A stretch of DNA of 64,000 bases from assembly GCA_964252035.1 (NCBI GenBank), contig OZ176200.1; one strand, 5' to 3'. Positions 36,301 to 39,300 of this stretch are shown here, piece after piece (the first letter of the stretch is position 1; every line of letters begins with the position of its first letter). The stretch comes from Podarcis erhardii. Its lineage: Eukaryota. Position numbers: made by a program.

Positions 36301-39300
36301 CATAAATTATGAGCAATACAGCACTTCTGGACAGTATTGCCCAAGTGTTCTCAAGATAGTTCAGCTATCCATGCCCTCTTTCTATTCTGCATCTACTTTT
36401 AATAAATCTTGGGAGTATGAAATGCAGTAGAATCATAGAATCATAGAGTTGGAAGGGACCCCAAGGGTCATGTAGTCCCAACAGCTTGCAATACAGGAAT
36501 CTCAGCTAAAGCATCCATGACAGATGGTCATCCAACCTCTGTATAAAAACTTCCAATGAAGAAGAGTCCTCCACCTCTCATGAGAGTCTGTTCCACTGTC
36601 AGACAGCTTACTATCAGAAAGCTCTTCCTGATGTTGTGTCTCCTTTCTTGTAATTTGAATTGATTGGTTCAGGTCCCAGCCTCTGGAGCAGGAGAAAGCA
36701 AGCTTGTTCCACGTGACAGTCCTTTAGATTTTTGAAGATGGTCATCATATCTCCTCTCAGTCTCCTCTGCAATGCTAGGATTCACTCCCCTGTTCCACAT
36801 TCTCATGGGAAGGACCATTTTACAGCCTGACACCTTGGGAATCTGGGTCACTAACACTGCAATTCTATGCATGCTTACCTCAGTGTAAGTTCCATTGAAC
36901 TCAATGAAGCTTGCTTCTGAGTAGACATATACAAACTGCACTGTAAATTAAATATAAACAAAATCTATACATTGCCGGAGGGATTTTCCTCCCACTGGCT
37001 GTGCGCCTGATTTGAGGCCTGTTGACAGCTGGATACCACACCATCCCATTTACAGCTACATAAGAGTGACAAAAACCAATAAGTGCTCATCAATACTAAT
37101 GCACTCTTGCTGCTTGGAGCTGCTATTCTGGGGTCATATTATATGTAGTGCTCATAATTTCTATAGGCAAGTTGTACAGTTCATCTGGAGACAGAAATCT
37201 GAGGGCAAATATATGTGTGATACAGGTGTATAACTCGTGTACTTGTGTAAAATGTATAAAGCATGTCAGGTGGAATTGTTTGACTATTATAAACATAGAG
37301 AATAATATTAGCCTACTCACATGTCAGTCACATACATCTGTGTCCCCCTCCCATGCCTGACATCCCCTTGGAGAGGGATTGAGCAGTGCAGACAGAAGTC
37401 GAGTTTGGTGCTTCAAGAACAAACAGATCTGATGTGGGAGGTCCATAATAAGATCTCCTGCCTTCTTAAAAAAAATATTAAATGGCATCTGGTAGCTGTA
37501 ATTCTGATTGCAGCAGTTTTTGGGGAAAGGAGATTTAACTCTCTTCCCCCAGTGCTGTTTTATTGATGTAAAACCCTTCTGCCCTTAGCACCACACAGGG
37601 AAAGTACATGTATCTGTATGGTGCCTATATTCCACCCCCTCAAAAGGGCCGATAGCAGCTTTAAATTGTAGGATTTAGACATGCTCTAAATCAGCCAGAA
37701 CTCCAATGAGCAGCATGGAAAACATTCCTTCTATACGTCCCAAGATCAGAGCTGCTCACTTATTTCTCTCACTATGTATTCATGATGGAAATTGACCTGG
37801 GAGGCTGTGGGCCCCAAAGGAAAGTCTTTGGATAAATAAACACTGCAAGCCCCCACTCTGCTTCCCAGCCTGGGTTGACTCAATTCTAGCAAGTACACTA
37901 TGTGGTTCTGTCCAGCACTGATAATAGGAACTCCTGGGTGATAAATTAAGACCCAGGGTTTTCTGTGCCACAATATGGTTTTAGTGCATATGAGTAGGAT
38001 TACAAGATGTGTGTTTCACTGTGAGTGTGTCTTCAGTAGAACCAGCATACGTTGCACTTTATAACATATGTTATAACATTATGCCCATGTATCAGGATAA
38101 ACAGCTTTATGATTTCTTCTTGTGAATGTAACATCCCATGCCAACCCTGATTTGGTTTGGTTTAGTTTTTATGTGCTTGTCTCGTGACAGTTTATTTTTT
38201 TACTTGGGTTATATGGATAAAAATCAACGAAAATAGTTTCAAAAAAAAGAACAACACGACGCTCGTGTAACTGTAACCAAAAGCCGTATTTCTAGAAAAT
38301 ACAAATTACAACCTAGAACCAAACTGCAAAATCATGAGCGCAACTATTTGTGTATGAATGAGGAAGTATACACTGCCATTGAGTGTCTTCAGCCTCCCAT
38401 CCTTTGTAGATTTGTACAGATAGACTCCATGCCAAAATAACACAAATGCCTGAAAGTATGTTTATGGGATAGGGCAAGGTATAACTTCCCTGTGCTCTGT
38501 ATCTACCCAGGGGTAGACAGGATGACCAGATGCAAAGAAGGACAACAGTCCTGTACCTTTAATAATTCTGGAGAAGGATTTATTTTATTTTATTTTTTGC
38601 TAATTGTCACACAGGGATGAGATTGTCTGCACAACTATTAAAGGTCTTGACCTCTTTTGAACCTGGTCACCCAATCAAGACTAGACTCTAAGCATAGTTG
38701 AGATCAGGTTGTGTGAGGAAATGTGCATATGTGCGCGCATAAGTCTCAGCAGGTACTTACGGGTGGGGTCCAAGTTAGGATAGCCCAAGTGGTTCTGGAT
38801 GGCCTCCCATAGGTCATAGTCTTCAAAGTTGAGCGCAAACTCCTCAAAGTCCTCATAGCCAAAAGAGTTACCGACACAGATGGCTATCCCTACTTCTGAG
38901 CTGTCTCCTACTCCTGTCTCCTTCACTGCATCCTCTCTGTCTGGAACAGCCATTGCTATGTCCTTAAGAAGGTGGGAGTCGAGGGGCATGTGACAATCAC
39001 AACATTGGCAAGGAGCAGGATTTAGCAGGTGGACCCTTTTTCTGACTGAAGCTCTTCAGGCAGCACACAATCCAGGAAGCTGCTAGGTTCAGTATTCAGG
39101 ATTTCTTCTGACAGGATTTGAGAGGAAATGCCAGCATATGTCATCTAGGCAAGTGAAAAGTGTAAAGACTTCCCCTGCTTGCTTGGAGTCCAAGGGAGCA
39201 TATATGTATCCTTGCTCGCTGCCACAGCTCAGTAGGAAGTTTGCTGTAGGAGATCCAATACATGTGCTGCTGGAAGAGGTTTCTTGGCTTGTGGCACTGC

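What the first reader, a model, noticed from the sequence alone, without database searches (positions are those of the whole stretch)
38761..38989. Hidden alternative first exon in intron 6 predicting a cardiac-type AE3 isoform in a reptile
Seen: a 76-codon acidic ORF ends in a perfect donor (C|gtaagt) in the same phase (1) as exon 6, so it joins exon 7 in frame to give 1029 aa. Established: mammalian cardiac AE3 uses an intron-6 promoter and a unique exon of about 73 aa replacing about 270 aa, giving roughly 1030 aa. Inference: the dual-promoter system predates the mammal-reptile split. The GYEDFEEF...DLWEAIQ segment is a candidate conserved functional motif.
Basis: partly seen in the sequence, partly recalled or inferred. 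Interest (0 to 1): 0.65.

Follow-up and report, generated by a model that had tools for sequence, protein, structure and literature searches.

The report
Ancient alternative first exon of AE3
A short coding stretch inside an intron of a lizard's chloride-bicarbonate exchanger gene (AE3) is a genuine alternative first exon shared from fishes to birds and laid out like the heart-type form known in mammals, so it is real but not a new kind of thing.

Summary
On the minus strand an ATG ORF (38989-38761, 76 codons plus 1 base) ends at C|gtaagt in phase 1, like exon 6 (ends 43078), and joins exon 7 (starts 33511) in frame. The gene is AE3/SLC4A3 of a lacertid lizard close to Podarcis.

It is a real exon. 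The same peptide heads named short AE3 isoform models (1013-1036 aa) in lizards, geckos, a snake, turtles, birds and ray-finned fishes, always joined directly to HRFEDNPGVRRH. Among 235 named proteins, 22 carry the core motif at the N-terminus without exon 6. Only 2 ab initio models have both. It is therefore an alternative first exon, not a cassette.

Two corrections apply. The conserved, strong-Kozak start is the second ATG (38953), giving about 1017 aa rather than 1029. The exon is not hidden, because it is annotated in many other species.

Three things were not shown here: sequence similarity to the mammalian exon (no named mammalian sequence was reachable), a promoter, and heart expression.

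Verdict: a new member of a known kind. The interest is modest and lies in the invariant acidic core, whose function is unknown.

The parts
38761..38953 (-). Coding part of the alternative first exon, from the conserved ATG (64 codons plus the first base of a split Arg codon). It contains the conserved core GYEDFEEFALNFEDYDLWEAIQNHLGYP.
   Evidence: Kozak gcaATGg. Named gecko, Pogona and rattlesnake models start at this Met. tblastn of gecko isoform X1 starts at 38953. 19-sequence alignment.
38954..38989 (-). It is not conserved and its start context is weak (cacATGc).
   Evidence: Only the window has this Met. Anolis has a different extra Met 4 codons upstream, and sturgeon X3 has a 20-residue extension.
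38755..38760 (-). Splice donor gtaagt after the phase-1 base C at 38761.
39056..39058 (-). In-frame TGA that closes the frame upstream of the exon.
38990..39500 (-). Presumed 5'UTR and internal promoter. This is inferred only. The region is CpG-poor (observed/expected 0.07) and holds upstream ATGs, including a 40-codon ORF at 39144-39022.
   Evidence: No transcript or comparative DNA evidence was available.
43078..43283 (-). Exon 6, the last exon specific to the long isoform. It ends in phase 1.
   Evidence: 100% identical to Podarcis lilfordi isoform X1 over 68 residues. tblastn.
33512..43077 (-). Intron 6 of the long isoform (9566 bp), which contains the alternative first exon.
33360..33511 (-). 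Exon 7, the first exon shared by both isoforms (HRFEDNPGVRRHLVKK...KLDRKPHE). Acceptor ttttttctag, donor gtaatg.
   Evidence: tblastn.
18392..33350 (-). The remaining shared AE3 exons (cytoplasmic core, membrane domain, C-terminal tail), colinear with gecko isoform X1 residues 115-1016.

Best explanation
This is the alternative first coding exon of the anion exchanger AE3 (SLC4A3) gene of a lacertid lizard. It lies about 4.1 kb into the 9.6-kb intron 6. Transcripts that begin here skip exons 1-6 and splice from 38761 to exon 7 at 33511 in phase 1. The 303 N-terminal residues of the long isoform are thereby replaced by a short acidic head. The head is most likely 64 residues from the ATG at 38953 plus a junction Arg, giving about 1017 aa. 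If the weaker ATG at 38989 is on the mRNA and used, it is 76 residues and the product is 1029 aa. The Band 3 cytoplasmic core and the Cl-/HCO3- transport domain are unchanged. Shown here: the anatomy, the frame, and orthology to the first exon of named short AE3 isoform models from ray-finned fishes to birds. Inferred: that an internal promoter drives it, that it is the counterpart of mammalian exon C1 (cardiac AE3), and that it is enriched in heart and retina. The conserved part is an acidic-aromatic core, (Y/F)ED(F/L)(E/D)EF(A/V)(L/F)(N/S/D)(F/L)(E/D)DYDL(W/L)E(A/S)I. I take this to be a docking or regulatory element specific to the short isoform. Its partner is unknown.
For: Anatomy. The gene is AE3: exon 6 is 100% identical to Podarcis lilfordi AE3, and the other exons map at 94-100% per block where HSPs do not overlap. 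The exon peptide found 8 proteins at E<=0.01 among 15 candidates, 6 of them named squamate AE3 models. Named short isoforms begin with this exon in 13 of the 27 cluster members I examined: Anolis sagrei X2, three Pogona entries, Mauremys X6, Eretmochelys X3 and 7 birds. The same holds for 5 of 10 further members: Amia X3, Alosa X4, Acipenser ruthenus X3 and X5, and A. sinensis. All of these join to HRFEDNPGVRRH. The junction residue is C, R or G, as expected for a split codon ending in GC. Identity of the window to squamates is 64-80%, to turtles 62-64%, to birds 55-63% and to fishes 38-41%. Pairwise BLASTP against bowfin gives E=8e-10 and against sturgeon 4e-12. Evidence for a first exon rather than a cassette: of 235 named proteins, 24 carry the motif, 22 of these at residues 15-66 without exon 6, and of 195 proteins with exon 6 only 2 carry it. 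Start codon: two gecko species (three models), Pogona and rattlesnake models start at the Met13 equivalent. The context is gcaATGg at 38953 against cacATGc at 38989. In the whole-library phmmer search, 6 of the 12 hits begin their match at query residues 13-16. Mammalian frame of reference: AE3c has 73 unique residues replacing about 270, is 1030 aa long, uses an alternative promoter, and has its cardiac first exon between exons 6 and 7 (passages of PMC1950688; PMC4664831; in dog 73 against 280 residues, PMC3124514).
Against: There is no transcript, CAGE or junction evidence for this species, so the promoter, start site and tissue pattern are all inferred. None of the 6 members of the Podarcis cluster is a short isoform with this exon. 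No crocodilian model with it was seen among the alligator and gharial cluster members. No named mammalian or amphibian sequence could be obtained: none is among the best 120 of 484 hits, and searches returned squamates only. Sequence similarity to mammalian exon C1 is therefore untested, and the mammalian head is longer (73 aa against 61-68 in sauropsids). Other short isoforms use other 5' ends, for example Gopherus X3 and Pezoporus X3, so not every short model is of this type. ORF plus donor alone arises by chance in 1.6-16% of simulated introns. The peptide has no Pfam family, no PDB relative and no Atlas hit.
Confidence: 0.87

Rival explanations
1. The exon is real and is a first exon, but translation starts at the first ATG (38989), giving a 76-residue head and a 1029-aa protein.
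For: It is the first in-frame ATG of the open frame, 36 nt upstream of the second. Scanning ribosomes would meet it first if the mRNA includes it. In-frame N-terminal extensions occur elsewhere: Anolis has 4 extra residues and sturgeon X3 has 20.
Against: The context is weak (C at -3, C at +4), against G at -3 and G at +4 for the second ATG. The 12 extra residues have no counterpart in any of the 18 other sequences. Two gecko species (three models), Pogona and rattlesnake models start at the Met13 equivalent. The transcription start is unknown and may lie downstream of 38989.
Confidence: 0.25
2. The exon is a genuine ancient alternative first exon of AE3, but it is not the counterpart of mammalian exon C1. 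Mammals would have lost it and evolved another first exon in the same intron.
For: No mammalian sequence was compared here. Searches with the exon returned no named mammal. The mammalian head has 73 residues, against 61-68 in sauropsids.
Against: The intron, the phase and the acceptor exon are the same, and the product size is similar (1013-1036 aa against 1030). The exon is present in both sauropsids and ray-finned fishes, so the amniote ancestor had it. The absence of mammals is weak evidence. The collection is clustered at 90% identity, and short isoforms sit hidden inside clusters whose representative is a long isoform, as searches showed.
Confidence: 0.15
3. It is an in-frame cassette exon of the long isoform (195 nt, 38955-38761), inserted between exons 6 and 7.
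For: An AG at 38957/38956 would give a 195-nt exon that enters and leaves in phase 1 with no stop. Two database models (Phrynosoma P0002, Lerista P0003) hold both exon 6 and the motif.
Against: Only 2 of 195 named proteins with exon 6 carry the motif. Both are 'hypothetical protein' models that read through the exon 6 donor into the intron (...MKS followed by translated intron), so they are prediction artefacts. A competing AG 7 nt upstream (exon start 38962), which has the better pyrimidine tract (16/20 against 13/20), gives 6 stops. All 22 other carriers have the motif at the N-terminus.
Confidence: 0.04
4. It is a chance open reading frame next to a chance GT in a long intron, and is not expressed.
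For: 237 of 1500 simulated introns (donor at least 7/9) and 24 of 1500 (GTAAGT) contain an equivalent ORF plus donor. There is no expression evidence for this species.
Against: The peptide is conserved from sturgeon to lizard with an invariant core, and in 22 named models it sits at the N-terminus of AE3, spliced to the same exon.
Confidence: 0.02

Closest known systems
Mammalian cardiac AE3 (cAE3 / AE3c) with its first exon C1 and internal promoter in intron 6 of SLC4A3
   Same: The gene is the same, and the position between exon 6 and exon 7 is the same. The head is spliced onto the same HRxEDNPGVRRH exon and replaces the whole long-isoform-specific N-terminus. The size is similar: 73 unique residues and 1030 aa in mammals (PMC1950688 passages; PMC4664831 passages; dog in PMC3124514), against 64-76 unique residues and 1017-1029 aa here.
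   Different: Sequence similarity to the mammalian head was not tested, because no named mammalian sequence was reachable. The head here is probably 9 residues shorter. A promoter and heart or retina expression are shown in mammals and only inferred here.
Named short AE3 isoform models of other vertebrates, most with RefSeq XP_ accessions (e.g. Anolis sagrei X2, Pogona vitticeps X2/X3, Euleptes europaea X1, Mauremys reevesii X6, Eretmochelys imbricata X3, seven birds, Amia ocellicauda X3, Alosa sapidissima X4, Acipenser ruthenus X3/X5)
   Same: The first exon is orthologous, the core motif and the junction are the same, and the lengths are 1013-1030 aa.
   Different: These are annotation models of other species. 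No such model was seen for Podarcis (0 of 6 cluster members). The N-terminal third of the head varies in length and sequence, and in fishes the W of the core is L.
Other SLC4 N-terminal variants made from alternative promoters (kidney versus erythroid AE1; AE2a/b/c)
   Same: The principle is the same: an internal promoter yields a transporter with a different or shorter cytoplasmic N-terminus and an unchanged transport domain (PMC4664831 passages).
   Different: The genes, introns and sequences differ. Kidney AE1 simply lacks residues, whereas the AE3 short form gains a conserved unique head.

Membership tests
Cardiac-type AE3 isoform (cAE3/AE3c, exon C1) | The first exon lies in the intron between exon 6 and exon 7 of the long isoform. 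| tested here: met
   Exon 6 ends at 43078, the candidate exon spans 38989/38953-38761, and exon 7 starts at 33511.
Cardiac-type AE3 isoform (cAE3/AE3c, exon C1) | It is spliced in frame to exon 7, replacing the long-isoform N-terminus. | tested here: met
   Both junctions are phase 1. Orthologous named models make exactly this junction. Junction reads for this species were not available.
Cardiac-type AE3 isoform (cAE3/AE3c, exon C1) | The unique head is about 73 aa and the product about 1030 aa. | tested here: met
   64 or 76 residues plus a junction residue, giving 1017 or 1029 aa by arithmetic.
Cardiac-type AE3 isoform (cAE3/AE3c, exon C1) | It is mutually exclusive with exons 1-6 (a first exon, not a cassette). 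| tested here: met
   22 of 24 motif carriers lack exon 6. Only 2 of 195 exon-6 carriers have the motif, and both are read-through artefacts.
Cardiac-type AE3 isoform (cAE3/AE3c, exon C1) | Sequence similarity of the unique head to mammalian exon C1. | not tested
   No named mammalian AE3 was reachable: none is among the best 120, and searches returned squamates only. The unnamed short hits were left unfetched.
Cardiac-type AE3 isoform (cAE3/AE3c, exon C1) | Its own promoter and transcription start inside intron 6. | not testable with these tools
   The only finding is that the upstream 1.5 kb is not a CpG island (observed/expected 0.00-0.07). No CAGE, RNA-seq or comparative DNA was available.
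Cardiac-type AE3 isoform (cAE3/AE3c, exon C1) | Predominant expression in heart (and retinal horizontal cells). | not testable with these tools
   No expression data were available. The mammalian pattern comes from PMC1950688 and PMC3124514 passages.
SLC4 anion exchangers (Band_3_cyto PF07565 plus HCO3_cotransp PF00955) | The downstream exons encode the Band 3 cytoplasmic and bicarbonate-transporter domains. | tested here: met
   The window exons are colinear with named AE3 proteins that carry both precomputed domains. The gecko stand-in P0007 hits Band_3_cyto at E=1.1e-106. The exon peptide itself has no Pfam family.

The most novel reading that the evidence does not exclude
The invariant acidic-aromatic core of the head (EF..(F/L)(E/D)DYDL(W/L)E(A/S)I, unchanged in key positions from sturgeon to lizard) is a docking or sorting element more than 400 million years old. 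It would give the short AE3 isoform a partner or a membrane address that the long isoform lacks. This would explain why excitable tissues keep a second promoter for the same transporter. In fishes the stretch reads like an acidic di-leucine signal, and in all species it is an acidic tyrosine cluster reminiscent of the enzyme-docking N-terminus of erythroid AE1. Both comparisons are recalled, not tested. No paper in the searchable library contains the motif, and a review states that the functional consequence of the AE3 N-terminal variation is unclear (PMC4664831).
Probability: 0.3. Interest if true: 0.55.

Novelty: new member of a known kind. Interest (0 to 1): 0.3.

Why it matters
For genome annotation, it adds a short AE3 isoform to a lacertid gene in which I saw no such model, and it corrects the likely start codon.

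For SLC4 biology, it shows that the two-N-terminus design of AE3 goes back at least to the common ancestor of ray-finned fishes and tetrapods; that design has been described experimentally in mammals, and I found no description outside them. Selection has held a roughly 20-residue acidic-aromatic core nearly fixed while the rest of the head drifts.

That core is a concrete handle on an open question, namely what the cardiac-specific head of AE3 does. AE3 itself matters for cardiac pH control, hypertrophy and retinal degeneration (PMC1950688, PMC4120010 and PMC3124514 passages).

Tried and rejected
1. Word-indexed protein searches with the exon and with a six-squamate profile (7 of 592 candidates at E<=1) found squamates only. 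This turned out to be an effect of clustering, not true absence.

2. The whole-library phmmer search gave 12 short unnamed hits (65-201 aa, 44-79% identity). I did not fetch, align or use them, because unnamed records can come from people's samples. The two weakest long matches (44% and 48% identity) could be more distant vertebrates. This stayed unchecked.

3. The exon 6 search was meant to reach mammalian long isoforms. The best 120 of 484 hits held no mammal or amphibian, so the direct comparison with mammalian exon C1 could not be made.

4. ESM Atlas: no usable hit. Pfam: 0 families. PDB profile search: only two hemocyanin chains at E=0.32 and 1.3, which I take as chance.

5. The AlphaFold2 model of the natural gecko fragment P0007 (head plus cytoplasmic domain) with 44 aligned AE3 proteins reached a mean pLDDT of 37.7 and pTM of 0.21. 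It is unusable, and no structural statement is drawn from it.

6. 'PGYPSC' at the start of a Podarcis muralis model looked like the tail of this exon, but it is encoded elsewhere (about 33907-33890).

7. The cassette-exon reading was considered and rejected.

8. I did no systematic promoter-motif scan of 38990-40200. By eye I saw nothing convincing, and consensus matches without comparative DNA would prove nothing. No tandem repeats lie in 33000-43500.

9. Literature searches for a non-mammalian cardiac-type AE3 exon and for the motif itself (0 papers) found no description. About 1.7 million non-CC PMC articles and all subscription papers were not searched. Supplements were closed, including Table1.PDF of PMC4664831, which may list variants.
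Full report
WHAT IS IN THE SEQUENCE. On the minus strand an ATG at 38989 opens a frame of 76 sense codons. One further base (C at 38761) is followed by gtaagt. The frame is closed upstream by a TGA at 39058-39056. The window holds no N.

The surrounding gene is an SLC4 anion exchanger on the minus strand. The gecko protein 'anion exchange protein 3 isoform X1' (P0005, 1016 aa) maps colinearly in 18 tblastn blocks from 38953 to 18392. Long-isoform models add upstream exons out to about 61 kb.

Exon 6 ends ATG AAA A|gtgaga at 43078, in phase 1. 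Exon 7 begins at 33511 after ttttttctag. Intron 6 is therefore 43077-33512, or 9566 bp, and the candidate exon lies inside it. Joining C to GC gives Arg, followed by HRFEDNPGVRRHLVKK.

The exon 6 peptide is 100% identical to Podarcis lilfordi AE3 isoform X1. Other exons are 94-100% identical to both P. lilfordi and P. muralis models. The window therefore comes from a lacertid lizard close to, but perhaps not the same as, those two species.

IS IT MORE THAN CHANCE? Not by itself. I simulated the intron 1500 times with a first-order Markov model. In 237 simulations there was an ATG ORF of at least 60 codons ending in phase 1 at a donor as good as the real one (7 of 9 consensus positions). In 24 there was one ending at an exact GTAAGT. 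The donor is perfect only in its intronic half, because the exonic bases are CCC. The case rests on homology.

HOMOLOGY. I did not build or search the joined spliced protein of the window. Lengths below come from coordinates and from named database proteins.

The 76-mer found 8 proteins at E<=0.01 among 15 candidates. Six are named squamate AE3 models:
- In the Phrynosoma and Lerista 'hypothetical protein' models, the peptide is internal. Those models read through the exon 6 donor into translated intron, so they are prediction artefacts.

A six-squamate profile found nothing new (7 of 592 candidates at E<=1). The reason became clear later. The collection is clustered at 90% identity, so short isoforms are hidden inside clusters whose representative is a long isoform.

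I opened ten named sauropsid clusters and read the N-termini of 27 members. Thirteen begin with this exon: Anolis sagrei X2 (1021 aa), three Pogona vitticeps entries (1015-1016 aa), Mauremys reevesii X6 and Eretmochelys imbricata X3 (1014 aa), and seven birds (1013 aa each). The other 14 have other 5' ends. They start inside exon 6 or exon 7, or have unrelated heads such as Gopherus X3 and Pezoporus X3. All three Podarcis muralis entries are among these 14.

I then opened ten more clusters and read ten members. Five again begin with the exon: bowfin Amia ocellicauda X3 (1015 aa), shad Alosa sapidissima X4 (1023 aa), sturgeon Acipenser ruthenus X3 and X5 (1030 and 1026 aa), and A. sinensis (1036 aa). 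The two alligator models and the softshell turtle, Alosa X3 and Polypterus X5 models lack it.

In the 19-sequence alignment, every head joins directly to HRFEDNPGVRRH through a C, R or G junction residue. Identity of the window to squamates is 64-80%, to turtles 62-64%, to birds 55-63% and to fishes 38-41%. Pairwise BLASTP of the lizard peptide gives E=8e-10 against bowfin (61% over 28 residues) and E=4e-12 against sturgeon (63% over 32 residues).

E, F, D-Y-D-L, E and I are invariant in all 19 sequences, and FEDYDLWEAI is invariant in the 11 sauropsid sequences. The first third of the head varies in both length and sequence.

FIRST EXON OR CASSETTE? One AG (38957/38956) would give a 195-nt exon that keeps the frame after exon 6, so the frame alone does not exclude a cassette. 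The database does. Of 235 named proteins in hand, 24 carry the motif. In 22 of them it sits at residues 15-66 and exon 6 is absent. Of 195 proteins with exon 6, only the two artefactual models carry it. A competing AG 7 nt upstream, which has the better pyrimidine tract, would give a frame with six stops.

WHICH START? The second ATG (38953) has G at -3 and G at +4, while the first has C at both positions. Two gecko species (three models), Pogona and rattlesnake models start at the second one. The 12 residues before it have no counterpart in any other species. In the whole-library search, 6 of the 12 hits start their match at query residues 13-16.

The Podarcis lilfordi common part is 952 residues. 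The product is therefore 1017 aa from 38953 and 1029 aa from 38989. Leaky scanning could yield both if the mRNA includes 38989.

HOW IT MOST LIKELY WORKS. Shown here: an alternative first coding exon, orthologous from ray-finned fishes to birds, replaces the 303 long-isoform-specific residues with a short acidic head (D+E = 15 and K+R = 2 of 64 residues). The Band 3 cytoplasmic core and the transport domain are untouched.

Inferred: an internal promoter in intron 6 drives it. The upstream 1.5 kb is strongly CpG-depleted (observed/expected 0.00-0.07), so it would be a non-island promoter. Upstream ATGs, including a 40-codon ORF at 39144-39022, suggest a short 5'UTR.

Also inferred: it is the counterpart of mammalian exon C1. 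Passages I read state that mammalian AE3c arises by alternative promoter use. [quoted passage not shown] In dog the figures are 73 against 280 residues, and the form is expressed mainly in heart and retinal horizontal cells (PMC3124514). Linn et al. 1992 and Yannoukakos et al. 1994 I saw only as citations in those passages. A 1995 paper on conservation of the cardiac exon and promoter in rodents and human is recalled only.

Because the exon is present in both sauropsids and ray-finned fishes, the amniote ancestor had it. A first exon in the same intron, in the same phase and feeding the same exon in mammals is most simply the same exon. I could not test sequence similarity, because no named mammalian AE3 was reachable. 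None is in the best 120 of 484 hits. The unnamed short hits were left unfetched, so that point stays open.

FUNCTION OF THE HEAD. It has no Pfam family, no PDB relative and no Atlas neighbour. A fold of a natural gecko stand-in failed (pLDDT 37.7). A review says the functional consequence of the AE3 N-terminal variation is unclear.

The spacing of hydrophobic residues within an acidic background suggests an amphipathic helix or short linear motif used for docking. That is my inference, not a result.

NOVELTY. This kind of isoform has been known in mammals since 1992. The orthologous exon already heads XP_-numbered or 'isoform X' models in many reptiles, birds and fishes. I saw no such model for Podarcis (0 of 6 cluster members).

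In the searchable library I found no paper that describes the exon outside mammals or that contains the motif (0 papers). Subscription journals, non-CC PMC articles and supplements were not covered.

I therefore rate it a new member of a known kind. The finding is correct and tidy but of modest interest, and the deeply conserved core is the one point worth following up.

Noticed in passing
window about 33890-33907 (-), and 33512-33566 (-): Two Podarcis muralis UniRef models start just upstream of exon 7. P0144 begins PGYPSC, encoded about 380 bp upstream of exon 7 and joined to it in phase 1. P0143 reads through the last 55 nt of intron 6. These may mark a further 5' exon or start site, or intron retention. 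Neither has a start Met.
   Followed up: partly
window 61202-61324 (-), 56414-56518 (-), 56365-56418 (-): The two Podarcis lilfordi long models differ at the 5' end. The 1306-aa model P0141 starts in an exon at 61324-61202 (41 of 41 residues identical), while the 1255-aa model P0022 starts at about 56418. The long isoform may therefore itself have alternative first coding exons.
   Followed up: no
window 11104-12366 (+): A 420-codon open frame lies on the opposite strand, beyond the 3' end of AE3. It has a borderline Pfam Lge1 match (E=2e-5, 25.1 bits against a cut-off of 25). It is probably a large exon of the neighbouring gene.
   Followed up: partly
window 14501-15000: This is one of only two 500-bp windows meeting CpG-island-like thresholds (GC 0.50, observed/expected 0.77). 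It overlaps a 154-codon + strand frame with no Pfam hit and may be a promoter of a neighbouring gene. The other window is 50251-50750 (GC 0.51, observed/expected 0.61), inside an AE3 intron.
   Followed up: no
exon core 38785-38830 (-) against the AE3 C-terminal tail (encoded near 18392-18463 and 18815-19006): BLASTP shows a weak resemblance between the head's FEDYDLWEAI...PNLD and the C-terminal tail FEDREL-KALD...PNFD of fish AE3 (E=0.055 and 0.25). It is not significant and is noted only as a curiosity.
   Followed up: no
window about 46390-46520 and about 60600-61100 (-): Dinucleotide microsatellites read as runs of RERERE or THTHTH in the minus-strand frames within AE3 introns and the 5' region.
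   Followed up: no
Gopherus X3 (P0152, P0173) and Mycteria X4 (P0210) N-termini: These turtle and stork models share a different Arg/Cys-rich 5' head (MRRR.../MRRS...), unrelated to the exon studied here. It may be another alternative 5' exon or a frame-shifted reading of an upstream exon.
   Followed up: no
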